A stretch of 20,000 nt of DNA, from positions 47,518-67,517 of the forward strand of contig JBNGIO010005379.1 of assembly GCA_049999805.1 (NCBI GenBank), written 5' to 3'. The position numbers and the translations under genes were made by a program. The notes under the pieces are model-generated. The model had not been told where the DNA came from, did not search any database, and saw nothing but the letters and a program-made list of their open reading frames with translations. Source of the stretch: Folioceros fuciformis (lineage: Eukaryota). Positions 1,630-20,000 of the stretch are shown here, piece by piece (position 1 is the first letter of the stretch; each line of letters starts with the position of its first letter).

Positions 1630-2230
1630 CTTCACAAAATATGGCCTTTTACTAAAAATAAAATGTTTTTATTGTAAATATAATTCAAATAATTTCTTTG
1701 TAAGCTTGTTTTCAATTCTTTTTCGAGCCATAAATGATGATGAGATACAAGCACATGGGATTAGCAATGGGTTAGTGGATTCATAGTACTAAGGGTAGGA
1801 TTTGGGAATTTGTATAATATCATGGCCTGATAGCAATGCTATGGTGCAGTTTACCCAGGGTTGGGGCATGGGCTTGCCTTGGGCTCAATCAAGTTTAAGT
1901 TACATTCTTTTATGCACAATTTAAATTTAATTCTTAATTGATATATGCTTTATTTATTCTGGTATTGATTAATTGATTTATAAATCTTCACTTTTGTGGC
2001 TCATAAAGCTTTTCTTCGACAGATAGCTTAGTTTGGAACATGGACGAACAGGTGACTCTGGCTCCGTGCAGATTGCCTGATTGTGCTGGGCTCCCATCTG
2101 CCATCCGGTTCGAGAAGGAAAAGGTGCCCATTTCTCAGGGCTTGGATGATGCAGGCATGCTGCCTTGTCTAGGATCGGCTCTCCATGTGCAAAGCCAGAG
2201 ACAGGCGGCCCCCGTGACCTCCATGGATTC

Positions 2231-5200: not shown

Positions 5201-5581
5201 ATGCCCGTCGTCGCCAACGCTGCTATCTGGCATACTCTATTGAATGCTTGTCGAAAGTGGAGGAACCTGGAGGTGGCGCGACACGCTTTCGAAGAAGCAG
5301 TGAAGCTAGACGAAAAAGATGCGGCTGCATATGTGCTGATGTTCAATATGTACACCGGTGCCCAGATGTGGGAGCAGGCACAGATGGTACAGTTGAGGAG
5401 GATGAAGGTCAGGGCATGGAAGCAGCCAGGTCAGAGCTGGTGGACCGACATGAACGGAGAGGTTCATAGTTTTTTGGTTGGGGACGACAAGCTCAAACCA
5501 GAATCAAACACGTCTTGCGCTGAAAGAAGCCAGGATGTGGACCAGTCACGTGACCGGGAGGCATATCTGATGTTAGGATGA
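2231..5581 (+). CDS. PLS-class pentatricopeptide repeat protein, organellar RNA-editing specificity factor (E1-E2 + WW-type PG box, DYW domain truncated), ~1116 aa
   Basis: The track ORF starts at a TTG (2165). The first in-frame ATG after the TGA at 2147 is 2231 (MAVGNVVIRILGR...), followed by an Arg-rich presequence-like N-terminus without acidic residues. Motif order is L-S, 7x(P-L-S), P2-L2-S2 (VVTWTALIAGYSQQG / SVTFVCLLQAC / VFVANSLVNMYAKCGSLEDA / VEHYTCMVDLLGRAG), then E1 (AAIWHTLLNACRKW), E2 (AAAYVLMFNMY) and KQPGQSWWTDMNGEVHSFLVGD. There is no HxE or CxxC and no DYW end. The ORF is uninterrupted. Confidence 0.96.
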   Translation: MAVGNVVIRILGRAPAQVQPQSQAHVPCRNQRRPQLLAHKHAARYSSTWPSTPQPDEPGSGGRIRCAEYERGAAVTQLCDQGYITQAVEALGVLVQTRCCISKSLFSAVLKKCAFRKDLVLGRRVHAFAVRTGYQSDAVLGTSILRMYASHGRLQDAMDVFELVSEPDAFTWSAVISAHAKQGQDKLAVELYHRMRRSSVKPDGHVFVAVLQACARGHDLKTGQQVHAHLLATGTQPDCFVTTCLVNMYAKCGQLEDAHTLFDGLGQNQKHVVTWTALIAGYSQQGRGQEALRIYGAMQREGLTVPNSVTFVCLLQACSSVGAPALDKGRQLHAEIRDHGHQDDVFVANSLVNMYAKCGSLEDARRVFQGLRHKDVGTWNALIAGHAHHGKGQEALRLYDVMKHECSTTPDSMTFVCLLQACAAVGTPALEKGRQLHVQIREGGHEADMFLANNLVNMYAKCGSIEDAERVFHGLHQRDVVTWNAMIAGYSQQGMGWEALRVYTDMQEEASAPPNSVTFVCLLQACANVGSAGLEKGREIHAQIAESVHQADEFVANSLVNMYAKCGSLDDAQRVFDGLRRKDVVMWTALIAGYSQQDMGQKALHLYSAMQEEGTAVPNSLTFVSLLQACASVGTQALDKGKQIHMQIREQGHEADLFVANSLVNMYAKCGSLEDAHAVFDGLTQKDVVTWTALIAGYSQQNMSQEALRLYGAMQEDSMAVPNSMTFGYLLQACSNLGTPALDKGKQLHAEIRARGYQGDLFVANSLVNMYVKCGSLEDAHRVFDGMVEKDVVTWTALIAGYSQHGMGQEALRHYIAMQDEGITVPDPVTFVCLLQACANVAALHLGRQIHAQIEEQGLHHQAFIASSLINMYGKAGSMVNAQQVFDGLPHRETVAWSALIAGYASQGHSEIVFDLVQRMRDDGVQPVGVTFLSVLTVCSHAGQMAKGMEFFEAMSREYGVTRTVEHYTCMVDLLGRAGQVDEALKLVSKMPVVANAAIWHTLLNACRKWRNLEVARHAFEEAVKLDEKDAAAYVLMFNMYTGAQMWEQAQMVQLRRMKVRAWKQPGQSWWTDMNGEVHSFLVGDDKLKPESNTSCAERSQDVDQSRDREAYLMLG
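2972..4850 (+). repeat. Intragenic ~312-bp PLS-triplet tandem repeat
   Basis: The ATG of the NMY[AVG]K[CA]G motif recurs at 2972, 3290, 3602, 3914, 4226, 4538 and 4844 (spacings 318, 312, 312, 312, 312, 306). Confidence 0.92.
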
Positions 5582-5941
5582 AAGACGGGGACAGCACCGA
5601 GATGCCCACGTCGTTGAAGAGACATAACTGGACATACGTCCGCAAGTGTTGTGAAGGACTTCCTCCGTGTTTGGTTGTGGCTGTGTTGTTATGTAGAGGA
5701 GAGTCGATGTATCCTCTGAAAGGGTGCAGGGACGGAAGTTGAAGTCGGACAGTTGTGTATGGTACAGGGCACAGCTGAAGGCGGGGTAGCCCCTCTGGCG
5801 CCCAGCAACGGCTGATGACAGACAGTAGAATCTGGAGCCTAACAGGTTGCAACGTCCACTAATCTTTCTATCGACAGCTCCCGCTCATCGCTCACCTGAC
5901 CTGAAGGAAGCCACCATTGTGCATGATGGCTGACAACCATG

Positions 5942-6475
5942 AGCAAGCTGTGTGATCAGGGCCATGGATTTGTCATTTAGGCTGTTGAGGAGGCTTGGGA
6001 ACTTTTGGTGCTTCCAAACAAAGCAGCGACCTGTGTTTCCAAATCCGCCTACTTCACTACTGCCTAATATGAATTTATGAGCACCGTCGTGAAAAGAAGA
6101 GACCAGAAGCGTGTGGGTGTGGGTCACCTTCATGTGGTGCCATTCCATACTTTGGGCTCATGTCAAACAGGCAAGGACAAGTGGGCCTCATTGCATGCAA
6201 TGGGTCCGACCAGATGGTCTAGTCTCGTCTGTTGTGGCCACCCCCTTCCGGCATGTGCAGGGGCATTTGTTGCAGCTGAAAACTGGCCACGAACAGCTGT
6301 ACATGCCTGCTTTCGGGGTTCAGACCAGAGTTGATCCCTTTGTGTGTGACTACACTTGCTTGGTGAACACAGTATGCGCCAAATGCTCGCACACTGTTTG
6401 ACAGGCTAGCACGCGAGCATGTCCTGGCTGGATTGCCCTTCTTAATTCTTATTGCAGGTATTCACAGCACGCCAT
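5942..6475 (+). pseudogene. Decayed partial tandem paralog of the 5' part of the upstream PPR gene
   Basis: Collinear matches to ~2455-3090: KLCDQGH..AVEEAWELLV vs QLCDQGYITQAVEALGVLV; CVSKSAY vs CISKSLF; TFMW...AHVKQ/GKDKWA vs AFTW...AHAKQGQDKLA; an exact 17-mer CACTTGCTTGGTGAACA (6353-6369 = 2956-2972); ATGCTCGCACACTGTTTGAC vs ATGCTCACACACTCTTTGAC; and an LIAG/YSQH remnant at 6448-6470. It has multiple frameshifts, stops and deletions. Confidence 0.85.
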
Positions 6476-6832
6476 GGATATTTTTTCCAAGATGCTCGAC
6501 CACAGTCACGACAATACGGGGATCAGGACAATGCAAGTCACCCTGCGGATCGCACGATGATGAAGACGACACGACCTCGGTCATGTCTGAAGTCACGGCC
6601 CTGGGAACGGGCCATCCACGGCATCAGCAATGGCGGGGTAGGGAACATGGGCTGTGTATCCGGGGCGAAGCGAGCATCAAGGGAATGGGACATGGCCTGG
6701 TACGGAGTGGGACACGCCTCTCGAGGAAATACGATCCCCCGTCCGACGAGCGGAAGACGTTGCGCTCGGTGATGGAGACATGGCCTTACCCGCAGCCGTA
6801 ATAGCCATCGGGTGTCCATGCGAAGACGGTAG

Positions 6833-9800
6833 TCATGCGACAGAAGGCCTGAGCACCGGAGTGTCACCTAACACAGGTAACTCTTGCGAACTAGAAGGTT
6901 TGGTAACATTTTCTGGCTCAGCACCGTCATCTTCTTCTTCCTCTTCACTTTCTGTTTCGGCAAAGTAGTCGATGTTGAACTCGGGACCATCGCCTTCAGG
7001 CATTTCTGGTCCGCATTTGTAGTTCTCATGCCATATCTCAAGACCGGCGTTATCTTTCTCAGTTTTGGCGTCCAAGATCTCGAAGGCATCCAGTAGGAAA
7101 AGTCTCTTATCTACCTCTTTCCTTGTGTCCAAGTGCCGGGCTCTGTCAGCAAGTCGGAGTCCAGCATGCCTGGCCTCCCATGCTATTCTGTGTCGCCTCC
7201 GGTCCACATCCAGCAGTATTTCAGCATGATTTTGCCGAATTTGTTGTCTTCTAGCACGTAGTCTAGCCTCCTTTGCGGCTACCGTGTTGTCAGTGAGAAC
7301 TCGCAACGCGGCTCTCCTTTTAGTGGCGTTCAGGTTATCACAGGCCTCACTGAGACTTGCACATACTTGCACTTCTCTTTCGCTCTCAAGAAAAATCTGT
7401 CTTCTTCTCATCCTTTCAGCGGCGGATTTGGCATCAAGGAACGAGTTGAAGGCATGGTTGCATGCGTGGAGCTCCCATTCTGTGGTCTTGTCTACATATC
7501 CAATTTTGGCCTGCAAGAACTGTCTTTTAGCTTCCCTTTCAGCAAGAGCTGCCCTCCTCTTCTGCCTTTGCCTCAATCTGTCGTTGCACAAGCGAGTTTC
7601 TAAATACGGCTCCGCGGGGTCATGCCTGTCCATCAGTTGTCTCTCCTTTTGCCTGGCCAACTGTCGCTTTCTGCAAAGCGTTGCTTCCTTTATCCTTTCA
7701 ATGGATCTTTGTAACTCCTCTTCTTGCAAGGCTTTGCTTTCTTCTGCTCTCCCGTCGTCACCAACTTGCGCCTTCGCTCCGTCATCTTTTTTCTGCTCAT
7801 CCGGCTTGTCAGATTGGATGAGCAGCCCTTGATCTTGAGGAGCAGGAGCAAGAGTAGGAGTGGAAGATCCATTTGCGTACACCTGCTCTTGGGGTGGACC
7901 CTGCAAAGCAGACTCCTCCTGCCCCTCGGGACTAGTAAGCGTGGTTGGCTGTACATCCATTTGGCTGTCAGGTCGCGCCATGTCTTTTGGTTCCGCTGGG
8001 TTCGTCGAATCTATTTCTGCTTGACCTTTTGCTTTGCAGGATTGTAATCTCGTCTTCATGCGTTTCAAGCCTTTGCTGATGTATTCACAGTTTCTAGGAC
8101 AACAGTGTGATGTTATGGCTGTCATTTTCCTTTTAATCCTGCCCTCCACAGGGCTTGAAGCTGATGTAGGGTCAGGCCCAGGACTGCTGGTGATGGTTGA
8201 AGCGTTTTGTACTGTGGGGGTTTTCTCTGTAGATGTGGTCCTACGAGTGTCCATGGGAGCTTGCGCGTTGGCTATAATCTTGTCATTCTCGCTCTTGAAT
8301 CTAAAAGCCTCCAACTCAGGTTCATTTCCTGCTTGTGGTATCTCGTTGAATGATGTACTTTCCCCTTGCTCCTGGGTGCCATCTGCGAGAGACGGTGGTC
8401 CACTGTTTTCAGTAAAATCACCTTTGGAGAATCCAATTCCCTCTTGCTCCTGGCTCCCAATGACGGACGAACGTCCACTCTTGTTCTTGGAGGTTAGATC
8501 ATCCAAGGCCACTAGAACAAAGCGTGCACGTGAAGTGATTGTCTCCTTGGAACCGTCCGCTCCGACGTCTTCAGTTTTGGTCACGGATGCTCTAGCAATC
8601 ATAATTTCGTTGTCTTGAAGGGCAAAGCTGCTCTTCTGCATTGGGGCATTCTTCTCTTCATTCTGCTCTTGATTTTGCACTGGGGCGACCTGCTCTTGAT
8701 TCTGCACTGGGGCACTCTGCTCTCCTTTCTGCGCCGGGGCACCCTGCCCTTCATCTTCTTCCGCACCCTTAGCTCGCGCACCCTCCAAATGACCTTTCAG
8801 GCTAATAGGCAGGCAACAGCTGGATAGTTTGGGTACATGAAGTGACCGACGGGGGCGCTTTGGCTCTTCTTCTAGGCCTTGCACCGAAGAGTCCCTTAGG
8901 TCATCCCCATGGCTGGAGAATGTCCCAAATGCTGACATGCCTGCCCCTGGGGCAACTTCGTGGGGACCTGCTCCCGGGTCTGCTTCTTGGGTCCCTGATG
9001 TCACAAGTGGACCGTGAGCCTGACCTTTACGGATATTTGCAGAGAGCGTCCCTTGTGCTGTTGTGGCTTTGCTATGTTTGCTGTCAGGTAGGTTAGACTC
9101 GATATGGTTGTCATGCATAGACGTGTCTTCCGTTCTGCCGAGTGCTTTTCTCTTAAACGGGTTACAACATGCTCTTCTATCATCCTTTTGAGTGTGAGGC
9201 ACATCCGCTCCTACACTTGCAGCCGGAGTGTCTGGCGCGTTCGACACAGCAGCTGTCTCAACACCGCTTTGGGTTGGTGGTCCAGTGGATGACAAACCAG
9301 GAAGTGGATCAGGCTGTGCGCCTCCTTCCTTACCATCCTCAGCCTGTTTCGTACCCCGGGGTGCCTTTCTTGTGAAGGGGTTGAAGTATGCTTCTCCATC
9401 GTCTTCCTGAGTTGCAGACATATGTGCTCCTGGACTTGCAGCCTGTGTGTCCAATGCCTTTGACACAGAAGCTTTCTCAAAGCTGCCCTGGTTTGTCGGC
9501 CCAATCGATGACCGACCATGAAGTGGATCAGGTTGTGTACCTCCTGCCGGATCCTGAAAAACGTCACCCACTTTCGTACTCTTAGATACTTTTCTTGTGA
9601 AAGGATTGCAGGATGCTCCTCTCCCGCTGTTATCTTTCTGAGTTCCAGACACATCTACTTCTGGACTCACAGGCTGCATGTCCAACGAGTTTGACACAAC
9701 AATTGTCTCGACATTGGCTTCAGTTTCTGGTGTAGAAGAGGGCAAAGTATGAAAGGGATCAAGCTGTGCATCTCTTTCTTCACCACCTTCAATCTCTTTC

Positions 9801-12800
9801 GTACTCCCAGGTCTTTTTCTTGTGAATGGGTTGCACAATACCCCTCCATCATCTTCCTGAGGTCTGGGCACAATTGCTCCTGGACTTGAAGCCTGTGTGT
9901 CCAATGCCTTTGACGCAGAAGTTGTCTCAACTCTACTTTGGTTTATTGGCCCAATCGATGACAAGCCATGAAGTGGATCAGGTTTTGCACCTCGATCCGA
10001 ATCCTGACCGACTTCACCCGCAGTCGTACTCTCAGATGCTCTTCTTGTGAAAGGGTTGCAGGATGCTGCTCTATCGATGTTATCTTTCTGAGTTCCAGAC
10101 ACATCTACTTCTTGACTTGCAGCCTGTATGTTCAACGCGTTTGGCACAACACCTGTCGCAATATTGCCTTGAGTTTCTGGTGTAGAAGATGGCGAAGTAT
10201 GAAAGGGATCTGGCTGTGCATCTCTTTCTTCGCCGCCTTTCATCTCTTTCGTACTTCCGGGTGGTTTTCTTGTAAAGGGGTTGCACCATGCTTTTCCATC
10301 ATCCCTCTGAGTTCCAAGCACACGTGCTCCTGGACTTGCAGCTTCTGTGTCCAACGCCTTTGACGGTTCACGTGTCTCAGTACTGACTAGGTTTGGTCGT
10401 CCAGTGGATGAAAAACCAGAAAATGGATGAGGTTGGATGTCTCGTTCTTGACTACCTTCAGCCTCGTTTGTACTCCTCTTTGCTTTTCTCGTGAAGGGGT
10501 TGCACCATACCCACTTATCATCCTCGTGAGTTCCAATGATATGTGCTCCTCGACTTTCAGCCGGTGTGTCCAGTGTGGTTGACACATCGGCGGATTCAGC
10601 TGTCTGAGCACTGCCTTGGTTTGGTCGTCCAATCGATGGCAAACTAGGAAGTGGATTAGGTGGTATGTCTCCTTCCTGACTACTGATTGTCTCTTGTGTA
10701 CTCATAGGTGCTTTTCTCGTAAATGGGTTGCACCATGCTCTTTCATCATCCTTATGAATTCCAGACACATCTTCTTCTGGACTTGCAGCCGGTGTGTCGA
10801 ACGCGTTTGACAAAGCTTCTGTCTCAACACCGCCTTGATTTGGTGGTCCAGTAGATGACGTACCCGGAAGGAGATTAGGTTTTGATTCTTCCTCCTGACC
10901 ACCTTCGGTCTGTTTCATACTCTTGGGTGTCTTTCTCGTGAAGGGGTTGCACCTTGTTACTCTATCATCTTTTTGTGTTTCGATCACATCTGTTTCTGGA
11001 CTTTCAGCCGGTTTGTCCAATGCGTTTGCGAGAATTGTTGTCTCGACACCGCCTTGGTTTGGTCCTCCATCGGATGGCAAATTAGGAAGTGGATCTCTTT
11101 GTATGTTTCCTTCTTGACCACCTTCAGTTGCAAAGGCCGACGATGCAAACATTGGCATCTGATCGGACTGCAAGTTGCTATCGTGATCTACATCTGATGG
11201 TTGCTGCAGGTTGGTGGATGGTTGAGACAGGAGAGGTGGATTAGCCTGTTGGCTATGTGTCACGCCCTGGTTTTTTGGCCACCCGCTGTTATGCAGATCG
11301 CTACCACTCACCTCAGAAGCTGGCAGGTTTGACTTGTATGCACTTGATTCACGTGTGCTGTCTGTAGGTGCCCCTGCTGTTCTTGCCAAAATGGTTCTCT
11401 CCTCTTTCGTTGTCTCAAAATTTTCACTGTCACTGGATTGATGCGTACGTATGTCAGAAACAGTTTGGTTGTCATGCACACAAATGTCCTTTATGGTTGT
11501 CCTGTGGTCTCTTCTTTTGAAGGGAAAGCAACAGACTTGTTTGTTGACCTCCTGGTGTGGTCGTTCTCCAATCAAAACAGCAAATGCCTGTGTGTTGACA
11601 GGGGATGCATCCACAGCAGCACCAGTTGCCTTCATTATTGCAAAGTCCGGAATGAGTGGTCCTGTGGATGCTAGAGTGGTAGCCTCATCTTGTGGTGCTG
11701 CATCTCCCGTATCACCTTTCTCAGTCAGAGCGCTATCTTCTCCTCTTGTTGAGGGGTAGCAGCGTGATGCTGTTGCGCTATCTCCTCTAGGATCCTGATG
11801 TTCAAGGATCGGAACACATGCAGCTGAAGATAGTGTTCCTTTGGTGAACACAGGTGGGCTTGTGCCAAGAACCTTGTCGACTTTGTCAATCTCCTCATTC
11901 TTGTCTCCTTGTATGCTACTAGCTGCCATGACGCTTTTATCATGTGTTGGTTCCTCTTCTGTTGCGTCAGTTTCATTTGGCTGTACGCCAGCATGTAAAT
12001 TGCTTGATAAGCCAGCAGAGTGAAGGGCACTTGACGCTCTCGAGGTTGAGGCTGCTGGTGATTCTGTTGTCTGAATGATGTCTCCAGTTGGGTCTACCCT
12101 AGTCAATTCTTCTAGAGGTGAAGAGAGGTGATGGATCTGTATTCCATCTGGATCTGCGGAAATTGGGTTGCCATCAGATTTGGTTTGCATATCTCCAGGG
12201 AGCAAAGTCGGAGGTACCTTTTTGTCCACGATAGCTTCCGAGAAAATGGTCGTCGATTTCCTCATCTTAGTAGAATCACTCACGTCTTGATCTTCCAGTG
12301 GGTAAACAGAGGTTTTGTGGTCTTCGAGAAGAATACTGTGTGATTCAAAGAGTACACCCTGTGGAAGTTTGACATCGGTATTTGTTGTTGGCTGTGTTGT
12401 GGGTGCGATTTGCGATGATCTTCCTCTTCCGTTGAGTTCAATTATGCTTTCTATCATAGTTCCTGAGTTGTCCTCCACATCCATGAATATAAAACCTTGC
12501 AAGTTGTCATTCTGGTATGTATCTTGCACTGCTGTCGTGGGTCTTCCTTCATCTGTTATTTGAGAGGCATTATCCATTTTTTCCTTATCAGTACATGGGT
12601 CACGTGTACCGTAGCATTCACTCATCTTCGCTTGGCCTTCATTGGAACCTGAAGGTGGTTCGTCCTCAGGAATAATTGGATCTAAAATGCCCTTAGTTGT
12701 TGTTACTTCATTTGATTTCTGTTGCTCCAATTGATTCTGTATGGGGAGCTCAGGTGTGTATAGGACCTGAGCTTGAGGGGGCTGGACAGACATGGCAAAG

Positions 12801-15800
12801 GCTGAATCAAGGGTGCCCAAAGCTCCATCATCAACTGTCTGATTCTCTAGTATCAGTGTGTTAGAAGGGCAAGCTCCATTAGTATCTGCTTCATTGATGC
12901 TCGGTTTGTCTAGCATTTGCTCAATCTCTGGCACTTGGTTACAAGTGGTTGGGATGTCAGTGGAAGTCCTACTGATCGTGCCCCCTTGAATGCTTTTAGT
13001 AAGCTTCTCCACAAAGCAGAAGGGACAGGGTCCTGGAACTTGACATAAACTTCTGTCTCCCTTCTTGTCTTCGCTTCGTTTAGCAATGCCATCATTACTC
13101 TCTTTGGACGCCTTTCTACAACCATCTCCCTGCTCAGAAGGGGCAACCTCGTTCTGTCCTTTCTCTACGCATGCAAACTCTTGACTCTTGATTTCAGTAG
13201 CTGTCGTGTTCTCTGTGCTCATATGCGGACTCCCGTCTCCCTGTTCTTGTGAGATGTCGGAGGTCAACACCTGGCATGTGGTTTGTTCTCCCTGATGGTG
13301 GTCTTTGCTTAGGTCGGCTGATTCAATATTGCCAGCTCTTGAAGGCGAGCCTTCGCCAAGGAGATTGCCTCCATGGACCTCTCTCTCAATCTTAGCAACT
13401 TCATCATGCCTCCGCTGTGCCGAGTGCATAGCACAATTTTGACTTTTGGGTTCATCACGTGCCCCATGTGTTGTGCTCGTAGAACCCTCGCCAATTCGTG
13501 TGTGACTTGCTTTTGAAACTTGTATACGCGACACACGAGCCTCAGTTTGGTCTTCTTGTGTGTTTAGTAATATGCCTTGTTCACCTATGTTTTCTGCTGA
13601 ATGTAAACTCGTACCGATCTCTGCGGGCACCTCTTTTTTTCCGATAGGTTCCAAGTCCTCACTCTTTTCTGGAGCCAGGTTGATTGAATGTAGTCTAGTG
13701 GGTTCATCAGAACGCAGGTGTGAGCTTCCTTGTACAGGACGACTCGCTGGAATTCCGGTTTGCTTTTTCGGAATGTTTTTAGTCACTGTATCATTCGCTG
13801 GTGAAGCAAACATGGACAAGGTTTTGGTACTATTTCCATGTGGTGAAGGTGTTGATGGCTCTGATGGTGGGACTATGGGTTTTCCAAGGACTTCTGTGTC
13901 CTGTGTAGACTTCTCCTTCTCGTAAGAAGGGGGCGTCGCCATTGCCACTAAAACGAAGTGAGATGTCAGTACGCTGTGAACCATATCTGTGGACGTAATT
14001 GCTTCTGCTATGATTTTGTCAGCTCCTTCGACCTCGGTAGGCAATTTTGGGTCTCCTGAATCAAATGCCGTGGTTGACGTCGAAGCTCTGGCAATCATAT
14101 GTGCCTCATCGTCTTCAATTGCGGCTTCGTTTCTGTACTCGACGAGCGTCTCCTGTCCGTGTTGATTGCGTCCAACTTGATTAGAGATTGTATCGTGACA
14201 TGATGAATCTGATTTTTCCTTGTCCGTAGCCAAAGATAGTCTTGAGTGGCGGTCTGCTCCAATTGTTTGAGGGTCCATGTGCTGAGCACGCTCTATTTCG
14301 GACGATTGCTCTCTTTGGTGAGTACTGGGTCTGTCTGGGATACCATGTCTTCCAAAATTCGCTTCCTTGGCTCCATATACCTGTGGTATGATGTCTATGG
14401 ACGGCTGATGATCATGATCGCTCTCTCTTTTTTGCTTGGTAGTTATTAGCTCAGCATCGTTGCCAGGCGGTGTGGTCTCTTTGGTGCCTTGATGATCGCT
14501 CCCCCTTACTTCTTGCGTATTTAGCTCGTCCGTGTGGCCAGAATGCTGAGGAGTGCCGGAGTCGGCCTGGGTGATACTTTGTCTCCCAGTCTTGTAGAAG
14601 GAGCTACTCACTTTAAGCAGACCACCCTCAGTGATAGATAGGCCAGAGATAGAGAAACGTGGCTGCATTTCCTTACTATCAAGCTCAAGAATAGGCATGG
14701 GTACTGGACTGGTGCCTGGTTTGCTTTCCCCGGCTTGCTGAGCTCCGAAGGATATCTGGACAATCTCGTCCATGTTCACGTTGTCACTCTTCTTCTGGTC
14801 ACTCTTCACGTGGTCTCTGCCTGGCGGTTTTTGTAACATGTGATGGAGAGGAGAAACCTCTGAAACTGCTCTCTCACCTTCAGAGGCACGTTGGAGAATG
14901 GGTTTCTCTTTATCATTGACCCCAGAAAATGCGGTTTCTAATGACTTCGCACGTAGTGCGGGCCTCATCTGCGTGCTAGAACGCATGATCCTGCTTCCTT
15001 GAGAAGAGCCGGCATCCTGCCTTGGTACCGTGCTGCTTTGTTCAACCTCATGCAGTCTGGGCACAATTGCTGCATGCTGCTTCTCATGTTCTTCACCTGT
15101 TGTTGTTTTGTGACTTGCTTGTTCCAAAGTTTTGCACCCTGAGTATGCAATTCGCACACCACTGTGGAAGGCCATGGCAACATGATGTCCGCCAGATTCC
15201 ATCTTCTCAACTAATATTGCGTCGGCCCTTGAGGCAATGCCAGGTTCAGCACCCTGATGCGTCGCAGTGTGACAAGTTAGTTGCCCAGTTATGCAAGACT
15301 CGCTCGTCTTTCTTAATCTTGTTGACGAGTAGTGATTTCCCGAGCTGGCTCTGCTACGCAGGTTACTTGTGTTCATGGTAGAAGTAATGTGCTCTCTATC
15401 GAGATGGTTCATGTCTTGTGTGCTTGCATTATGGTATGCGGACTCGAGTAACTGTGAATCCAGGAGTGTGGATCTTTCTTTTTTGGGAAATTTAGAGAGA
15501 AGACCATCGCTGGGACTTGTCTCGCCATAAGATCCGTCCCGGATGATCCCTCTCGACAAAGTGGGCTCAGTGGATGATATCGAGCGCTTGCCACCCATGG
15601 TCTCTCGCTGGGCTGTCGTGTTCCGTGAAACGGACAATGAAGGTTCCTGGCCTCCTCGCAAGTTAACACTGCGGCCTGCTTGACTTGTGCCCTCGGGACC
15701 ATCTACCTCAGACTTTGAAGACCTCTTTGTACCATTCGATGAAAGGCTAGAGCTGTCGGGATTCAAACTTGGCAACATGGTCCCGGATGTTGAAGGTATA

Positions 15801-16561
15801 GAGGTTCTTCTTCGTCCTTGATGTCCCTGTGTAGGTGAATGATCTGTGATGTATTGACGTGGTTCATCTTGTGTTTCCTCAACTAATACGTCCTCAAGCT
15901 CCATTTCCTTCATGTTCTTTGGTTTTGGCACGACAATGAGGTATGTTTTTTTTTTGTCGGCATCGTTGAATAGTTGACCTTGTGAAGATCCGGACCAGGG
16001 TGGATCAGTAATTATTTCGTGTACCTTACTCTTCGTTTTTGACGGTGTGGGGTGTGTAACTCGTGATTCTTTGTCTCCTATTGTTTGACGATGTTTTTCG
16101 TCCCGTGGCATCCCGCTCTCCTCTTTCTTCTGGTGCCGTGTATCTTGGGGTGAGATGATGCTGCTCCCAGTTGTAGTAATGGTTGTCGCGAACAATGTCG
16201 TGGTTGAGGCGCTATGATGTGATGCTTCCTCCAAATATTGTGCTCCACTAGTTCCTGTGTGATTGTGCACTGCCAAATTCTCTGTGCCTATCTGGGATGC
16301 TCTCGTCAGACTAACATAGCCTTCAGCGGCATGGACGTCTTTCTTGATGACCTCAGCTACTTCACTAGTGCGTGAAGTGTGAGCTTCCTCCTGAAGCTTG
16401 GAGAACATATTTTGGATCATGTTGATCTCGTAGTGGTTGTGCACTGGTGAGCTGGCGGTTCGTGGTGATGTCACTGTGCTTGTAATGTCAAGCTCGAAAT
16501 CCATTTCAACGAATTCTACTCCAGGGCACTCCTCTGGAGCATCGTTTTCGGCGTCTCCCAT
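6833..16561 (-). CDS. Giant uncharacterised protein (3242 aa): mostly disordered, with an NPF-motif tandem-repeat region, a C-terminal Arg/Ala/Leu-rich helical (coiled-coil-like) domain and an acidic tail
   Basis: A 9729-nt stop-free frame, far beyond chance length. Repeat-unit length differences are all multiples of 3. Composition is S/T/G/P/E/D/Q-rich, with no long hydrophobic segment or obvious signal peptide. I recognise no enzymatic or transposon domain. The true start is uncertain (see findings). Confidence 0.9.
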   Translation of the reverse strand: MGDAENDAPEECPGVEFVEMDFELDITSTVTSPRTASSPVHNHYEINMIQNMFSKLQEEAHTSRTSEVAEVIKKDVHAAEGYVSLTRASQIGTENLAVHNHTGTSGAQYLEEASHHSASTTTLFATTITTTGSSIISPQDTRHQKKEESGMPRDEKHRQTIGDKESRVTHPTPSKTKSKVHEIITDPPWSGSSQGQLFNDADKKKTYLIVVPKPKNMKEMELEDVLVEETQDEPRQYITDHSPTQGHQGRRRTSIPSTSGTMLPSLNPDSSSLSSNGTKRSSKSEVDGPEGTSQAGRSVNLRGGQEPSLSVSRNTTAQRETMGGKRSISSTEPTLSRGIIRDGSYGETSPSDGLLSKFPKKERSTLLDSQLLESAYHNASTQDMNHLDREHITSTMNTSNLRSRASSGNHYSSTRLRKTSESCITGQLTCHTATHQGAEPGIASRADAILVEKMESGGHHVAMAFHSGVRIAYSGCKTLEQASHKTTTGEEHEKQHAAIVPRLHEVEQSSTVPRQDAGSSQGSRIMRSSTQMRPALRAKSLETAFSGVNDKEKPILQRASEGERAVSEVSPLHHMLQKPPGRDHVKSDQKKSDNVNMDEIVQISFGAQQAGESKPGTSPVPMPILELDSKEMQPRFSISGLSITEGGLLKVSSSFYKTGRQSITQADSGTPQHSGHTDELNTQEVRGSDHQGTKETTPPGNDAELITTKQKRESDHDHQPSIDIIPQVYGAKEANFGRHGIPDRPSTHQREQSSEIERAQHMDPQTIGADRHSRLSLATDKEKSDSSCHDTISNQVGRNQHGQETLVEYRNEAAIEDDEAHMIARASTSTTAFDSGDPKLPTEVEGADKIIAEAITSTDMVHSVLTSHFVLVAMATPPSYEKEKSTQDTEVLGKPIVPPSEPSTPSPHGNSTKTLSMFASPANDTVTKNIPKKQTGIPASRPVQGSSHLRSDEPTRLHSINLAPEKSEDLEPIGKKEVPAEIGTSLHSAENIGEQGILLNTQEDQTEARVSRIQVSKASHTRIGEGSTSTTHGARDEPKSQNCAMHSAQRRHDEVAKIEREVHGGNLLGEGSPSRAGNIESADLSKDHHQGEQTTCQVLTSDISQEQGDGSPHMSTENTTATEIKSQEFACVEKGQNEVAPSEQGDGCRKASKESNDGIAKRSEDKKGDRSLCQVPGPCPFCFVEKLTKSIQGGTISRTSTDIPTTCNQVPEIEQMLDKPSINEADTNGACPSNTLILENQTVDDGALGTLDSAFAMSVQPPQAQVLYTPELPIQNQLEQQKSNEVTTTKGILDPIIPEDEPPSGSNEGQAKMSECYGTRDPCTDKEKMDNASQITDEGRPTTAVQDTYQNDNLQGFIFMDVEDNSGTMIESIIELNGRGRSSQIAPTTQPTTNTDVKLPQGVLFESHSILLEDHKTSVYPLEDQDVSDSTKMRKSTTIFSEAIVDKKVPPTLLPGDMQTKSDGNPISADPDGIQIHHLSSPLEELTRVDPTGDIIQTTESPAASTSRASSALHSAGLSSNLHAGVQPNETDATEEEPTHDKSVMAASSIQGDKNEEIDKVDKVLGTSPPVFTKGTLSSAACVPILEHQDPRGDSATASRCYPSTRGEDSALTEKGDTGDAAPQDEATTLASTGPLIPDFAIMKATGAAVDASPVNTQAFAVLIGERPHQEVNKQVCCFPFKRRDHRTTIKDICVHDNQTVSDIRTHQSSDSENFETTKEERTILARTAGAPTDSTRESSAYKSNLPASEVSGSDLHNSGWPKNQGVTHSQQANPPLLSQPSTNLQQPSDVDHDSNLQSDQMPMFASSAFATEGGQEGNIQRDPLPNLPSDGGPNQGGVETTILANALDKPAESPETDVIETQKDDRVTRCNPFTRKTPKSMKQTEGGQEEESKPNLLPGTSSTGPPNQGGVETEALSNAFDTPAASPEEDVSGIHKDDERAWCNPFTRKAPMSTQETISSQEGDIPPNPLPSLPSIGRPNQGSAQTAESADVSTTLDTPAESRGAHIIGTHEDDKWVWCNPFTRKAKRSTNEAEGSQERDIQPHPFSGFSSTGRPNLVSTETREPSKALDTEAASPGARVLGTQRDDGKAWCNPFTRKPPGSTKEMKGGEERDAQPDPFHTSPSSTPETQGNIATGVVPNALNIQAASQEVDVSGTQKDNIDRAASCNPFTRRASESTTAGEVGQDSDRGAKPDPLHGLSSIGPINQSRVETTSASKALDTQASSPGAIVPRPQEDDGGVLCNPFTRKRPGSTKEIEGGEERDAQLDPFHTLPSSTPETEANVETIVVSNSLDMQPVSPEVDVSGTQKDNSGRGASCNPFTRKVSKSTKVGDVFQDPAGGTQPDPLHGRSSIGPTNQGSFEKASVSKALDTQAASPGAHMSATQEDDGEAYFNPFTRKAPRGTKQAEDGKEGGAQPDPLPGLSSTGPPTQSGVETAAVSNAPDTPAASVGADVPHTQKDDRRACCNPFKRKALGRTEDTSMHDNHIESNLPDSKHSKATTAQGTLSANIRKGQAHGPLVTSGTQEADPGAGPHEVAPGAGMSAFGTFSSHGDDLRDSSVQGLEEEPKRPRRSLHVPKLSSCCLPISLKGHLEGARAKGAEEDEGQGAPAQKGEQSAPVQNQEQVAPVQNQEQNEEKNAPMQKSSFALQDNEIMIARASVTKTEDVGADGSKETITSRARFVLVALDDLTSKNKSGRSSVIGSQEQEGIGFSKGDFTENSGPPSLADGTQEQGESTSFNEIPQAGNEPELEAFRFKSENDKIIANAQAPMDTRRTTSTEKTPTVQNASTITSSPGPDPTSASSPVEGRIKRKMTAITSHCCPRNCEYISKGLKRMKTRLQSCKAKGQAEIDSTNPAEPKDMARPDSQMDVQPTTLTSPEGQEESALQGPPQEQVYANGSSTPTLAPAPQDQGLLIQSDKPDEQKKDDGAKAQVGDDGRAEESKALQEEELQRSIERIKEATLCRKRQLARQKERQLMDRHDPAEPYLETRLCNDRLRQRQKRRAALAEREAKRQFLQAKIGYVDKTTEWELHACNHAFNSFLDAKSAAERMRRRQIFLESEREVQVCASLSEACDNLNATKRRAALRVLTDNTVAAKEARLRARRQQIRQNHAEILLDVDRRRHRIAWEARHAGLRLADRARHLDTRKEVDKRLFLLDAFEILDAKTEKDNAGLEIWHENYKCGPEMPEGDGPEFNIDYFAETESEEEEEDDGAEPENVTKPSSSQELPVLGDTPVLRPSVA
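8663..8722 (-). repeat. 27-bp coding microrepeat (APVQNQEQ x2 plus degenerate neighbours)
   Basis: CTGCTCTTGATT[T/C]TGCACTGGGGC occurs at 8663 and 8690; the protein reads EQSAPVQNQEQVAPVQNQEQNEEKNAPMQK. Confidence 0.85.
9140..11130 (-). repeat. Coding tandem array of nine 219-228-bp (73-76 aa) units, each with an NPF motif
   Basis: NPF codons have their + strand left edge at 10940, 10721, 10493, 10274, 10049, 9824, 9599, 9374 and 9155 (spacings 219, 228, 219, 225, 225, 225, 225, 219). The consensus is about EGGQE.D.QPDPL...SS.GP.NQG.VET...S.ALDT.AASP...V.GTQ.DD....CNPFTRK. Confidence 0.95.
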
Positions 16562-16630
16562 CTCTGGACACCTCTTTCGTTTGATGTCACCAGTGAGCTC
16601 CTGCGATATGGCGTCAGCCTTGTCGCCAAT

Positions 16631-16825
16631 TTAACGCTTGATAACCACTTTCTGGCCCAGTTGAGGATTGGCTTTGCCAGGTCGGACATTGGCTTGGCCA
16701 GGATGGAATGGATTGGCATGGCTTTCCAATCCTGATTTCATCTCGGTGCTTGTGTCCTTTGAGATCTGCTGGGTGGCCACATCCGTGTGGCCTACAAGTA
16801 CTCCGGTGACTTGATTGAACAACAT
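16631..16825 (-). other. 64-codon upstream ORF in frame with the giant ORF, separated from it by a single TAA
   Basis: The ATG at 16825 is 264 nt (88 codons) upstream of the ATG at 16561. The only in-frame stop between them is TAA at 16633-16631, followed by open codons IGDKADAISQELTGDIKRKRCPE-M. The uORF itself contains an NPF (SHANPFHPG). Confidence 0.6.
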
Positions 16826-17380
16826 TGAGGTTGTAGATTAATACATGGGATCTCCACTCACCTCAGATGGAGACAGACCTCAAATGAGTTCTATGGGTAA
16901 CAGAAGGGGACTGGTCAAAGTACACCTCTACGTTATTGGATACAAAAGCAAAAAACTAATAAACCTGACTTTGGATTCCTTTGCATGTTACCGCGTAAAA
17001 GAAATAGTATTTTATTTCCATGTTTCATATTTCATATGTCACGCTCATCAATTGAATATGGATAATCGAACATAGAAATATAAAATAAATAAATAAATAA
17101 AAATTACTTTATAAGTTATTTTTAATAATAAGAAACGATAAAATAATAGTGTTTTATACAATAAGCATGTAGAGTAGCAATATTAGGAAAAAAAATCCAT
17201 GAATTGGTAAGGTGGTTTGTGAATGATTGTATTTGATTGTAATGTAAGAAAAATTAGAGAAATCCAACCTTTGATCGGATATGCTTGTGAACTATAATGA
17301 TAAACATCATCACAATGATGAATACATTTTAAAATACTTGTTTGTATCACATTTACTTATTCTTATGATACTAAACTCTA

Positions 17381-17470
17381 TGAAATGATCATTATTTTTA
17401 GTTGACAAAGTGAAATGATCAGTATTTCTAGTCGACAAAGTGAAATGAGCAGTATTTCTACTCGACAAAG
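17381..17470. repeat. 30-bp tandem repeat, 3 copies
   Basis: TGAAATGATCAGTATTTCTAGTCGACAAAG-like units start at 17381, 17411 and 17441. Confidence 0.92.
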
Positions 17471-17860
17471 TATTATGTATTGTGGACTTATTGTACACAA
17501 CCCTAGTAATTTAATGAAGAAGAAGAATTAAGCTTCAAATCTGCCTCACATAAACCTTAACTTAATGCAAAAGAAAACTATACCTTAAAGTTCTCCTCAT
17601 GTTTCTCATAGTGTTTCAAGTAGTCTCATATGTTGTATCAAATGAAATGATCCAAAGAATGCACTAGTTTCATATGTTGTTTCAAGTAGAGACAGCTGGT
17701 GTACAAATATGATATGATAAGATGCACCAGTGTTATGTTCCAACCTAACTTTTTTGTCACTAATTTTTATTCCTAAATAACCTTTCCAATCCAAACTTCA
17801 TGCTATTAGCTACAACGATCACACTATGATCTAACTTTGTTCCTTAGAACCCCTTGGGTC

Positions 17861-17960
17861 CTTCTATTATCATGGGGAATCATAGGTATTTGCCTGCTTC
17901 TAGTGATACTACTTCTATTGTCATGGGAAATCGTAGGTCCTCGCTTAGATTCTAGTGATA
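17861..17960. repeat. ~51-bp degenerate tandem duplication
   Basis: CTTCTATT[A/G]TCATGGG[G/A]AATC[A/G]TAGGT...TTCTAGTGATA starts at 17861 and 17912. Confidence 0.8.
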
Positions 17961-17998
17961 TGTTACGAGTTAATTTCATACAACTTTAACAAGAAAAT

Positions 17999-18098
17999 NN
18001 NNNNNNNNNNNNNNNNNNNNNNNNNNNNNNNNNNNNNNNNNNNNNNNNNNNNNNNNNNNNNNNNNNNNNNNNNNNNNNNNNNNNNNNNNNNNNNNNNN
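17999..18098. other. Assembly gap (100 N)
   Basis: Exactly 100 N, the usual placeholder for a gap of unknown size. Adjacency across it is not guaranteed. Confidence 0.99.
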
Positions 18099-19296
18099 AA
18101 GTTGGATCAACAAGTTAAGGAAAGCTTTAACACACAATTGCTGTACATCTAGTGATTCAAAAAATTAAAATAATTTTAATCATAAATGATTTCAATCATA
18201 AAAGCCAATGAGGAAAGTTGGATTCAATAGCTCGTCGTAATCAGCCAATTTTGTAATATTATCTAAAATAAATAAATTATTAAAAAAACAATTTTGTGCC
18301 TACCAATTATCTATTGGACAGAAGAAATAAATAGATCTATTTAACTATATAAATTAACTCTAATAATATCTAATATTCACATTCCCACAAAGTTGCAAAT
18401 GGGAAAGAAAACTAAAATGTTTGAAATAATAAGTAGAAAACAAAAAATTACATACAAAACAAAAGCTTGTAAAAAGATCCTACAGACATAAAAATAAATA
18501 TACATACACTAGTAATTAATACTTATGCATATTACAATGTGTGGGTATAAGAAACTTCGGTTAGACCACATCGAGTATAAGTAAGGTTTTATTTAAATAT
18601 TAAATATAATTTAAATATATGACTTTTCCCATGAATAATATAAGATTTTTCAATCATAGTGGATACATCTAATAAATACAGAAAAATCCCAATACTATAA
18701 AATATCTATATAAAGGTTACATTGTACAATGTTAAAAGGTGAACCATATTATGACCCATTCAATATATATGCGATGTATAAAATTTAAGTAAATAATAAT
18801 CTACATTTACAATAAAGGGTTAGTGTTAATTTGGAAAAACCTTATAGGAATTCTTACTAGGATCCTCTAGAACAACTATAGCAACATAAAATACAATGGT
18901 TACATGTGAGAATGCCCTATGGGCAATAAGGGCAACATGGAATCTTATTACTACAAGCTAGAAAGATGTGGTGGGATGGAACATAATAAATGTCGAATAT
19001 TCCATGTAGGCATGGTTGTGGATTTGCTTTTTCCTTGCAAAGGTCATGGGAAGAGAAGATGCAAAAGAGTTTAACTAGATTCTTCAACATTTTATTTCTC
19101 AGTTTTATTTTTATTTCAAATTATGTATCTCATATAAAATATCATTATTTTTAAATAGGAAAAAATATTTAAATATAATATGTATAAATATATTTCTTGA
19201 ATGTGACATGACAAGGAGTGCTCACTCCTTCACAACTAGAGAGCTGAATAGCCTGGAAATGATGACCAACATGTTGTGCAAGAAATTTTAGATGAC

Positions 19297-19985: not shown

Positions 19986-20000
19986 GAAGGGCTTCGTTGG

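What the first reader, a model, noticed from the sequence alone, without database searches (positions are those of the whole stretch)
6833..16561. Giant 3242-aa single-ORF disordered scaffold protein with no recognisable family
Seen: a 9.7-kb uninterrupted frame encoding about 2900 aa of low-complexity S/T/G/P/E/Q-rich sequence. It is punctuated by short hydrophobic or Cys motifs and a nine-unit repeat array, and ends in a ~220-aa helical region and an acidic tail. No RT, integrase, transposase or kinase motifs are visible, and there is no TM helix or signal peptide. Established: coding exons of this length are uncommon in plant nuclear genes. Inference: a lineage-specific multivalent linear-motif scaffold, acting for example in endocytosis or cortex/cytoskeleton anchoring, or in gametes. 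This is the best candidate for an undescribed system in the window.
Basis: partly seen in the sequence, partly recalled or inferred. Interest (0 to 1): 0.8.

Follow-up and report, generated by a model that had tools for sequence, protein, structure and literature searches.

The report
Orphan giant NPF-repeat plant protein
A land-plant genome carries one intact, intron-free 9.7-kb gene for a huge, mostly floppy protein with no known relatives; its only clearly preserved parts are ten copies of a short docking motif of the type read by membrane-trafficking proteins, plus a helical tail, so it is probably a lineage-specific multivalent scaffold, though its function is untested.

Summary
Window 6833-16561 (-) is one 3242-codon ORF, and 200 shuffles never exceeded 332 stop-free codons. 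It lies tail to tail with a PLS-class PPR gene, so the source is a land plant. Two independent studies hold the stretch, as contigs colinear with the window.

No family was found. Pfam, PDB sequences, three word-index searches and two Atlas look-ups gave nothing. An exhaustive phmmer of the last 363 aa against 1.84 billion proteins found only one unnamed 57-aa fragment.

The protein is mostly disordered by two proxies and has a roughly 250-aa Arg-rich helical C-terminus.

The new result concerns the nine ~75-aa repeats. They drift neutrally (pN 0.341, pS 0.332). The embedded C-NPF-T-R-K is frozen (pN 0.039, pS 0.673; NPF alone pN 0, pS 0.9), the lowest pN of 74 windows. The array holds no stop, where about 14 are expected.

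Best reading: a lineage-restricted multivalent linear-motif scaffold. NPF is the class I EH-domain ligand, so an endocytic or membrane-traffic role is the leading inference, but it is untested. The conserved Cys and the basic tail remain unexplained.

The parts
6833..16561 (-). Single uninterrupted ORF of 3242 codons plus stop (P0001)
   Evidence: Contigs of runs X1 and X2 are colinear with it (records 6-8 and 10-13).
9122..11134 (-). Array of nine ~75-aa repeat units (residues 1810-2480). Each ends in [C/F]-N-P-F-[T/K]-R-[K/R]. The motif codons lie at 10931-10951, 10712-10732, 10484-10504, 10265-10285, 10040-10060, 9815-9835, 9590-9610, 9365-9385 and 9146-9166.
   Evidence: Selection on the motif: (pN 0.039 against pS 0.673; rest of unit 0.341 against 0.332). 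No stop where 14.3 are expected.
11450..11674 (-). Degenerate tenth unit (residues 1630-1704) with CCFPFKRR in place of CCNPFKRK
   Evidence: 37% identity over 76 columns to unit 9, E 2.5e-5. Also.
7016..7756 (-). Arg/Ala/Glu/Leu-rich helical C-terminal region (residues 2936-3182)
   Evidence: helices 57-99, 105-141 and 149-303 of the 363-aa piece; 207 of 363 residues have pLDDT of 70 or more. Composition. Only generic long-helix fold matches.
6935..7102 (-). Terminal conserved motif FEILD..EIW..NYKCG.EM.EGDG.EF.IDY plus the start of the acidic tail (residues 3154-3209). This is the only part with a relative anywhere.
   Evidence: 32 of 56 residues identical to P0002, a 57-aa ORF on an unnamed 1495-nt contig.
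13013..13027 (-). CPFCF Cys motif (residues 1179-1183), followed by VEKLTK
8795..8818 (-). CCLPISLK motif (residues 2582-2589)
8081..8104 (-). CCPRNCEY motif (residues 2820-2827), followed by a basic stretch (ISKGLKRMKTRLQSCKAKG)
16562..16979 (-). Possible 418-nt 5' leader with six upstream ATGs. The start-codon context is GAGATGG.
   Evidence: The X1 contig (record 8) ends at 16979. Sequence; ATG count. It is a leader only if X1 is RNA, which is a guess.
5582..6832 (.). A 1.25-kb spacer of 53% GC between the convergent stop codons of the PPR gene and the giant ORF. It is probably 3' UTR sequence.
   Evidence: One contig spans 5416-9657 in both X1 and X2.

Best explanation
This is a genuine nuclear gene of a land plant. 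No second copy was detected, and it has no intron within the ORF. It encodes a lineage-restricted 3242-aa protein that is almost entirely intrinsically disordered.

Its function sits in short linear motifs, not in folded domains. There are ten copies of C-x-P-F-x-[KR]-[KR]. Nine of them are (C)NPF(T)R(K), set about 75 residues apart in a tandem array. Selection holds these motifs fixed while the linkers between them evolve neutrally. A few further Cys/Pro/Phe-plus-basic motifs are present, together with an Arg-rich helical C-terminal region that ends in a conserved motif and an acidic tail.

The most likely mechanism is inferred, not shown. The NPF array would act as a multivalent, low-affinity, high-avidity ligand for EH domains. 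In plants these are the AtEH/Pan1 subunits of the TPLATE complex and the EHD proteins. The protein would then cross-link or recruit EH-domain proteins at membranes, with the C-terminal helices providing a second attachment or assembly site.

Shown: a real, selected ORF; no known family; disorder; motif-specific purifying selection.
Inferred: EH-domain binding, membrane or endocytic location, and the role of the C-terminus.
For: 1. The ORF is real and selected. It has 0 stops in 3242 codons, against 98-232 in the other frames. Shuffles reach at most 332 codons. In the array, 0 of 2000 simulations at the observed divergence stayed stop-free, with a mean of 14.3 stops expected. All alignment gaps among the units are multiples of three.
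2. The stretch is present in runs of two studies (X1 from 2017, X2 from 2025), with 0.99 of the sampled words in each. Long contigs are colinear with the window: X1 5416-9657, 9633-10107 and 10083-16979; X2 5416-16933 in four pieces.
3. There is no sign of paralogues. Over the ORF, the summed depth of all X2 contigs laid at 80% likeness or more (10.9-14.8) is about that of the single contigs listed there (10.9-16.3). Over the PPR gene it sums to 759-5716.
4. No family was found. Pfam gave nothing. Searches of 7989, 8000 and 8000 scored candidates gave 0 hits each. An exhaustive phmmer of the C-terminal 363 aa hit 1 of 1,835,955,588 proteins, a 57-aa fragment. PDB sequences gave 0 hits.
5. Disorder. 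51 of 63 windows fall on the disordered side of the charge-hydropathy boundary. In the AlphaFold2 model of residues 1601-2800, 1193 of 1200 residues have pLDDT below 50, with no helix or strand element.
6. Motif selection. Across nine units, CNPFTRK has pN 0.039 against pS 0.673, and NPF alone has pN 0 against pS 0.9. The rest of the unit has pN 0.341 against pS 0.332. The motif window has the lowest pN of 74 windows. Pro uses all four codons, and Phe, Asn, Thr and Lys use two each. This rules out recent copying as the cause of the identity.
7. NPF occurs 9 times against 0.2 expected, and PF.[KR][KR] 10 times against 0.0 expected, with 0 of 300 shuffles reaching either count.
8. From the literature (passages read). 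NPF is the class I EH-domain ligand. Single motifs bind weakly and multiple copies gain avidity (PMC8927860). The plant AtEH1/Pan1 EH1.1 domain binds the NPF motifs of SCAMP5 with a Kd of 59 uM, and binding is abolished by NPF-to-AAA mutation (PMC8144573).
Against: - No binding test was possible, because no EH-domain sequence could be obtained.
- EH binding does not explain the Cys kept directly before NPF in 8 of 9 units, nor the basic T-R-K tail. The degenerate tenth unit keeps C-C-x-P-F-K-R-R but has lost the Asn.
- Other endocytic motifs are absent or not convincingly enriched. DP[FW] occurs 2 times against 0.3 expected (12 of 300 shuffles reach that). The clathrin-box pattern occurs 3 times against 0.9 expected (20 of 300). 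FxDxF, WxxF, FxxFxxL and DLL all occur 0 times.
- The one plant EH-NPF interaction I read about used two NPFs separated by a short acidic stretch (PMC8144573). Here the NPFs are 73-76 residues apart.
- The linkers have a dN/dS of about 1 (median 0.87 over 36 pairs).
- No orthologue is available, so conservation between species is unknown.
- Transcription is not shown. X1 is only guessed to be RNA.
Confidence: 0.4

Rival explanations
1. It is the same kind of object, a real orphan disordered scaffold with a selected motif array. But the motif is not an EH ligand. The unit under selection would be Cys-x-Pro-Phe plus a basic tail. That unit could work as a reversible S-acylation and electrostatic membrane anchor, a metal or redox site, or a docking site for a different, unknown reader.
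For: Cys precedes NPF in 8 of 9 units and is doubled in unit 9. The degenerate unit keeps CC-x-PF-KRR without the Asn. C.PF occurs 9 times against 0.1 expected, PF.[KR][KR] 10 times against 0.0, and CC 4 times against 0.5 (only 1 of 300 shuffles reaches that). Further Cys/Pro/Phe motifs followed by basic residues lie at residues 1179, 2582 and 2820. Adding the Cys to the window lowers pN: CNPFTRK 0.039 against NPFTRKA 0.085.
Against: Within the array, Asn is invariant with zero non-synonymous change. A pure Cys/Pro-Phe/basic anchor does not require that. No tool here predicts S-acylation. The two readings are not exclusive.
Confidence: 0.25
2. It is a nuclear, chromatin-associated or RNA-associated giant disordered scaffold. 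The Arg-rich helical C-terminus would bind nucleic acid or chromatin, and the repeats would dock nuclear partners.
For: The helical region is 15% Arg. Basic clusters such as KRPRRS, GRIKRKM and RKRQLARQKER are visible. The K[KR].[KR] pattern occurs three times. PMC8144573 (passage) mentions a nuclear-envelope protein with a double NPF motif as a possible EH1.1 partner.
Against: K[KR].[KR] is not enriched: 3 against 2.0 expected, reached by 90 of 300 shuffles. No nucleic-acid-binding domain was found. Nothing positive ties the protein to the nucleus.
Confidence: 0.12
3. It is a cytoskeletal or axonemal protein, for example specific to sperm cells. The long charged helices would lie along microtubules or filaments, and the disordered part would project outward.
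For: The C-terminal model is made of very long helices. Among the 50 VIA-align rows, 12 are chains from ciliary doublet-microtubule entries.
Against: Those rows have Z of 7.3-8.1 with rmsd mostly 27-95 A, and they tie with tropomyosin, lamin, cohesin and ATP-synthase stalks. The tool's own note says Z under about 13 means little for long helices. There was no Pfam hit and no sequence relative. The lineage, and hence whether it has motile sperm, was not established.
Confidence: 0.08
4. It is a functionless or decaying element: a young orphan ORF, a transposon-derived ORF or an assembly artefact, with no selected protein function.
For: There are no homologues. The repeat linkers have a dN/dS near 1. 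No run on record as RNA holds it.
Against: - A 9.7-kb open frame cannot persist neutrally.
- The motif shows strong purifying selection.
- No RT, integrase or transposase domain was found.
- No extra copies at 80% likeness or more were seen in the DNA run.
- No terminal inverted repeats of 40 nt or more were found in the window.
- The stretch is present in runs of two studies.
Confidence: 0.05

Closest known systems
Multi-NPF endocytic accessory and cargo proteins read by EH domains. SCAMP1 and SCAMP5 were read in PMC8927860 and PMC8144573. Epsin, Hrb/AGFG1, synaptojanin-170 and stonin-2 are recalled from general knowledge.
   Same: Several NPF tripeptides sit in disordered sequence. Multivalency gives avidity for EH domains that bind each motif weakly (PMC8927860). 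The NPF is the element under selection.
   Different: Those proteins have 2-5 NPFs beside a folded or membrane domain (ENTH, ArfGAP, phosphatase, four TM helices), and they belong to conserved families. This one has nine evenly spaced NPFs in 75-aa tandem units, an invariant neighbouring Cys and a basic tail. It is 3242 aa long, has no folded domain and has no detectable family.
Eps15/Ede1/AtEH1-type disordered endocytic scaffolds and their condensates (PMC7615741, abstract in the search listing only; PMC13176895, passages)
   Same: It is a large disordered protein with repeated short motifs and a helical region, which suits multivalent network formation.
   Different: Those scaffolds carry the EH domains themselves (the readers). 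This protein carries only the ligand motif and no EH or EF-hand domain.
Giant repeat-bearing disordered scaffolds in general, such as animal Ki-67, MDC1 and AHNAK (recalled, not tested)
   Same: These have very long, largely single-exon, disordered coding sequence with tandem units. Each unit presents one conserved short motif, and the linkers evolve fast.
   Different: There is no sequence relation, the motif differs, and the kingdom differs. The resemblance is only architectural.

Membership tests
Class I EH-domain ligand proteins (NPF-motif proteins) | One or more Asn-Pro-Phe tripeptides | tested here: met
   Nine NPFs against 0.2 expected; 0 of 300 shuffles reach nine.
Class I EH-domain ligand proteins (NPF-motif proteins) | The motif lies in accessible, disordered sequence of a non-secreted protein | tested here: met
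   By proxies only. All windows starting between residues 1651 and 2451 (which cover the array) fall on the disordered side. 1193 of 1200 residues of the model of 1601-2800 have pLDDT below 50. There is no TM stretch and the N-terminus is acidic.
Class I EH-domain ligand proteins (NPF-motif proteins) | The motif is functionally constrained (conserved beyond its surroundings) | tested here: met
   NPF has pN 0 against pS 0.9. CNPFTRK has pN 0.039 against pS 0.673. The rest of the unit has 0.341 against 0.332. The motif window has the lowest pN of 74 windows. This is among paralogous units only, because no orthologues are available.
Class I EH-domain ligand proteins (NPF-motif proteins) | Physical binding to an EH domain that depends on NPF | not testable with these tools
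   No EH-domain sequence of this or any plant could be obtained.
Transposable-element or retroviral ORF | RT, integrase, transposase or protease domain; multiple copies; terminal repeats | tested here: not met
   No such Pfam hit at E up to 1. No extra contigs at 80% likeness or more over the ORF in DNA run X2. No inverted repeat of 40 nt or more in the window.
Canonical coiled-coil oligomerisation domain (C-terminal 250 aa) | Heptad periodicity of hydrophobic residues; self-association | tested here: inconclusive
   The helices are predicted with confidence. But a simple a/d heptad score is no better than shuffles: 72 of 200 shuffles reach it. Fold matches are generic long helices with Z of 8.4 or less.
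Any Pfam family, over the whole protein | A score at or above the family's gathering cut-off | tested here: not met
   The best rows are 12.6 bits against a cut-off of 26, and 10.1 bits against 27.

The most novel reading that the evidence does not exclude
This would be a lineage-specific giant cross-linker of the plant endocytic machinery. Nine NPF sites on one flexible 3242-aa chain would bind many EH domains (AtEH/Pan1 of the TPLATE complex, or EHDs) at once. The protein would thereby nucleate or tune their condensates or membrane contact sites. The invariant Cys next to each NPF would be reversibly S-acylated, so that lipidation and the basic tail pin each site to the membrane and gate EH access. 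That would be a lipid-switchable multivalent EH ligand, with no counterpart described in any organism.
Probability: 0.1. Interest if true: 0.7.

Novelty: new variant of a known kind. Interest (0 to 1): 0.45.

Why it matters
If the array really is read by EH domains, this would be the most multivalent natural EH ligand known to me (from recall). It would also be a plant-lineage-specific addition to a machinery (TPLATE/AtEH condensates) in which, in the papers I read, one NPF-bearing partner, SCAMP5, is characterised in plants (PMC8144573, PMC13176895). It would give a natural tool for asking how ligand valency controls endocytic condensates.

Independently of function, it is a clean case of how a giant orphan disordered protein evolves. 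A 7-residue motif is held fixed (pN/pS about 0.06), the 68-residue linkers around it evolve at pN/pS of about 1, and the 9.7-kb frame stays intact throughout.

The caveat is that everything beyond 'real gene with a selected motif array' rests on a three-residue motif.

Tried and rejected
**Expression**
- No RNA holder is listed.
- Run X1 is only guessed to be RNA. Its contigs cover 2035-16979 but none were laid at 1335-2001 or 17343-20000, where DNA run X2 has cover. This is at most a weak hint that X1 is a transcriptome and that the ORF is one unspliced exon. I do not count it as evidence.
- Only 15 of 1966 joints are listed, and all 15 lie in the PPR gene. Absence of joints in the ORF is therefore not shown beyond the colinear long contigs.
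- One X1 record is laid at both 8167 and 4204 (table 5c). This is probably a short chance match at the 80% threshold.
- Runs X5 and X6 (other organisms of X1's study) showed only pieces of 38-63 nt. Nearly all were on the PPR gene, and they held no usable match to the ORF.

**Self-association of the C-terminus**
- The complex-prediction job with two copies of residues 2935-3225 gave no answer, with scores of 0.00 and 0.00. It counts neither for nor against.

**Fold and family searches that found nothing useful**
- Foldseek against the PDB gave 0 matches.
- VIA-align wide gave only generic long helices, Z of 8.4 or less.
- The Atlas gave a best score of 0.79 to unnamed clusters for the C-terminus, and no usable hit for the array.
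- phmmer against PDB sequences gave 0 hits for the C-terminus and 0 for the whole protein.
- The word-index searches (whole protein near-length, whole protein shorter, array shorter) gave 0 hits each. The N-terminal 2880 aa were never searched exhaustively, because the single exhaustive job went to the C-terminus. Weakly conserved islands there could have been missed.

**Other resources**
- No genome is held for the window. Orthologue searches by tBLASTn in other plants, dN/dS between species and lineage placement were therefore not possible.
- Earlier findings of this scan gave nothing for this place, this sequence or these words. The NPF notes that were returned concern phages, bacteria and archaea and do not bear on this gene.
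- Rfam gave no match in the window.

**Literature**
- The search for 'NPF repeats', 'NPF motifs', 'intrinsically disordered' and 'land plants' (at least 3 of 4 terms) returned 0 papers.
- The search for 'NPFTRK' and 'NPFTR' returned 0 occurrences, and the 'CNPF' hits were unrelated acronyms.
- PMC2857698, on charge effects around NPF, is not held. Whether a basic tail favours or disfavours particular EH domains therefore stays unchecked.
- Supplements were not consulted.

**Methods and minor ideas**
- Two whole-protein BLAST self-comparisons returned only the self-hit. A chunked comparison replaced them.
- The 'MIARAS...FVLVA' similarity between residues ~826-875 and ~2688-2722 was seen by eye. 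It was not recovered at E of 0.01 or better.
- N-myristoylation was considered because the protein begins Met-Gly. I rejected it from the recalled PROSITE pattern, which excludes Asp after the Gly.
- The PDP[LF] element of the repeat is not among the 12 lowest-pN windows. I do not claim it as a DPF-type motif.
Full report
**1. The observation**

The window holds one open reading frame at 6833..16561 on the minus strand, 3242 codons from an ATG. Stop to stop it runs 3265 codons, to 16630. The other five frames of the same 9.7 kb contain 98-232 stops. In 200 shuffles of the stretch, the longest stop-free run averaged 160 codons and never exceeded 332. The codon-position bias is of coding type: purine at position 1 in 0.63-0.67 of codons, and T at position 1 in 0.10-0.16. 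It is even across all ten 300-codon windows, so no part looks like a retained intron.

- The protein is rich in S, E, T, A, G, P, D and Q, and poor in W, Y, C and F.
- It has nine NPF-bearing repeats.
- It has a helical C-terminal region and an acidic tail.
- It has no Pfam domain: the best rows are 12.6 and 10.1 bits, against cut-offs of 26 and 27.
- It has no TM-like stretch: the maximum 19-residue hydropathy is 1.16.

**2. Setting**

The gene lies tail to tail with a 1138-codon ORF at 2165..5581 (+). That ORF is a PLS-class pentatricopeptide-repeat protein with an E motif (PPR_2 E 9.5e-126, E_motif E 3.3e-10). To my knowledge this class is characteristic of land plants.

Both genes are about 49-53% GC, while the flanks are 23-40% GC. 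No genome is held for the window, so I could not place the lineage more finely or look for orthologues.

Runs of two studies hold 0.99 of the sampled words of the ORF: X1 from 2017, and X2 from 2025, which may be the source of the assembly. Their long contigs are colinear with the window. X1 covers 5416-9657, 9633-10107 and 10083-16979. X2 covers 5416-16933 in four pieces. The contig breaks fall inside the repeat array.

Over the ORF, the summed depth of everything X2 laid at 80% likeness or more (10.9-14.8) is about that of the single listed contigs. Over the PPR gene it reaches 759-5716. So I see no close paralogues and no repeat-element behaviour.

Whether X1 is RNA is only a guess by the tool, and transcription is therefore not shown (see Tried and rejected).

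**3. No family**

- The whole protein against proteins of 1783-5674 aa: 7989 candidates scored, 0 hits.
- The whole protein against 30-1782 aa: 8000 scored, 0 hits.
- The array alone against 30-1782 aa: 8000 scored, 0 hits.
- The last 363 aa, scored by phmmer against every one of 1,835,955,588 representatives: one hit, P0002. P0002 is a 57-aa ORF on an unnamed 1495-nt contig, with 32 of 56 residues identical to residues 3154-3209. The shared pattern is FEILD..EIW..NYKCG.EM.EGDG.EF.IDY, followed by acidic residues.
- PDB sequences gave 0 hits.
- Atlas features gave a best score of 0.79 to unnamed clusters, and nothing for the array.

The N-terminal 2880 aa were searched only through the word index, so weak islands of similarity there may have been missed.

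**4. Anatomy**

*Disorder.* 51 of 63 windows of 100 aa fall on the disordered side of the charge-hydropathy boundary. A single-sequence AlphaFold2 model of residues 1601-2800 has a mean pLDDT of 32.9, with 1193 of 1200 residues below 50 and no helix or strand element. A single-sequence model is a weak witness, but it agrees with the composition.

*C-terminus.* The model of residues 2880-3242 has a mean pLDDT of 69.4 and a pTM of 0.29. It has three long helices, at 2936-2978, 2984-3020 and 3028-3182, and 207 of 363 residues have pLDDT of 70 or more. The helical part is 15% Arg, 13% Ala, 11% Glu and 11% Leu. A simple heptad test is no better than shuffles, with 72 of 200 shuffles reaching the observed score. 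I therefore call it helical, not a proven coiled coil. Foldseek found nothing, and VIA-align found only generic long helices at Z of 8.4 or less.

*Repeat array.* Nine units of 73-76 aa span residues 1810-2480 (window 9122-11134). Their consensus is ..EGG.E...QPDPL.GLSS.GPPNQG.VET...VSNALDT.AASPGADV..GTQKDD..A.CNPFTRKAP.STK. A tenth, degenerate unit at residues 1630-1704 matches unit 9 at 37% identity (E 2.5e-5) and carries CCFPFKRR where unit 9 has CCNPFKRK. Further Cys/Pro/Phe motifs followed by basic residues lie at 1179 (CPFCF), 2582 (CCLPISLK) and 2820 (CCPRNCEY).

**5. What selection says**

Pairwise Nei-Gojobori estimates among the nine units give dS of 0.17-0.73 and a median dN/dS of 0.87 over 36 pairs. 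As wholes, the units therefore drift almost neutrally. This holds even for the youngest pairs: units 5/7 give 0.99 and units 6/8 give 0.98.

Column by column the picture splits. The seven codons of C-N-P-F-T-R-K have pN 0.039 against pS 0.673, and N-P-F alone has pN 0 against pS 0.9. The rest of the unit has pN 0.341 against pS 0.332. The motif window has the lowest pN of all 74 seven-codon windows.

The codons themselves vary: Pro is CCC, CCA, CCT or CCG, Phe is TTC or TTT, and Asn is AAC or AAT. The identity of the motif is therefore kept by selection on the protein. It is not due to recent copying or gene conversion.

The frame is also protected. Random substitution at the observed divergence from the unit consensus would give 14.3 stops in the nine units, and 0 of 2000 simulations had none, yet none is observed. 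All alignment gaps are multiples of three. The units share ancestry, so these counts overstate independence, but the direction is clear.

**6. Mechanism**

A short peptide kept fixed in neutrally drifting, disordered linkers, repeated ten times at even spacing, is the signature of a multivalent linear-motif scaffold. That much I regard as well supported, at about 0.7.

Which reader binds the motif is inference. NPF is the class I ligand of EH domains. Single motifs bind in the high micromolar range, and several copies gain avidity (PMC8927860, passages). In plants, the EH1.1 domain of AtEH1/Pan1 (TPLATE complex) binds the NPF motifs of SCAMP5 with a Kd of 59 uM, and NPF-to-AAA mutation abolishes binding (PMC8144573, passages; also PMC13176895). 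AtEH1 and AtEH2 are described as condensate scaffolds (PMC7615741, abstract in the listing).

My best reading is therefore that the array is a high-valency EH ligand, which recruits or cross-links EH-domain proteins at membranes. The C-terminal helices and the conserved terminal motif would give a second contact. I put this specific reading at 0.4.

**7. What does not fit**

- EH binding explains neither the Cys kept before NPF in 8 of 9 units nor the basic tail.
- The degenerate unit keeps Cys-Cys, Pro-Phe and the basic residues but not the Asn.
- Other endocytic motifs are absent or marginal.
- The plant EH-NPF case I read used two closely spaced NPFs, whereas these are 73-76 residues apart.

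The main rival (0.25) is therefore that the selected unit is C-x-P-F-x-[KR]-[KR], acting as a lipidation-plus-charge membrane anchor or as the ligand of an unknown reader. The two readings can be combined, as in the novel case. The nuclear, axonemal and 'functionless' readings have little in their favour (see Rival explanations).

**8. Comparison and novelty**

In its workings, the protein most resembles the multi-NPF partners of EH-domain proteins. It is not a member of any of their families. It has no ENTH, ArfGAP, SCAMP or other domain and no sequence relative.

I found nothing in print on such a protein. The search for NPF repeats or motifs, intrinsically disordered and land plants returned 0 papers. 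NPFTRK and NPFTR returned 0 occurrences. Both searches cover only the held library.

I class it as a new variant of a known kind: a giant orphan version of the NPF-array ligand. Interest is moderate. The gene, its orphan status and the motif selection are solid. The function rests on a tripeptide, and binding, expression and orthology remain to be tested.

Noticed in passing
window 2165-5581 (+): An intron-free PLS-class PPR gene with an E motif and no DYW hit among the 25 Pfam rows shown. It is built from a 312-nt (P-L-S triplet) unit repeated 5.7 times at 73% identity. Runs X1 and X2 laid 4899 and 7048 contigs on the window at 80% likeness or more, with summed depth highest by far over this gene. 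The genome therefore holds a very large family of similar PPR genes.
   Followed up: partly
window 1-1334: AT-rich flank with tandem repeats: a 36-nt unit x3.7 at 1-133 and a 53-nt unit x3.0 at 742-902. The summed X2 depth here is 140-410, against about 11 over single-copy parts. It looks like dispersed repetitive DNA.
   Followed up: no
window 17999-18098, and 17381-17471: A run of 100 N (an assembly gap) lies in the 23-29% GC region upstream of the giant gene. A 30-nt x3 tandem repeat sits nearby.
   Followed up: no
window 12753-12764: The contigs of both X1 and X2 differ from the window by four substitutions, one deleted base and one inserted base within 12 nt. The site is the loop of a perfect 8-bp hairpin, GCTCAGGT...ACCTGAGC. 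It is either a small inversion-type polymorphism or an assembly difference. The reading frame is restored within 5 nt.
   Followed up: partly
window 5582-6832: The 1.25-kb spacer between the two convergent stop codons is 53% GC, unlike the other intergenic parts. It is spanned by a single contig in X1 and in X2. The two genes' 3' ends may abut or overlap.
   Followed up: no
window 8662-8751 (-), residues ~2604-2633: A 27-nt tandem repeat x3.3 encodes the (A/S)APVQNQEQ repeats between the array and the C-terminal region.
   Followed up: no
window 16562-16979 (-): The stretch between the end of the X1 contig and the start codon holds six upstream ATGs and a GAG|GTGAGT donor-like site near 16862. 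If this is the 5' leader, translation of the giant ORF may be regulated by uORFs.
   Followed up: no
residues ~826-875 and ~2688-2722 of the ORF (window ~13937-14086 and ~8396-8500): Two hydrophobic islands share a loose pattern, [EN].[HI]MIARAS...G.....ITS....FVLVA[ML], seen by eye. The first contains the most hydrophobic 19-mer of the protein. The similarity is not significant by BLAST.
   Followed up: partly
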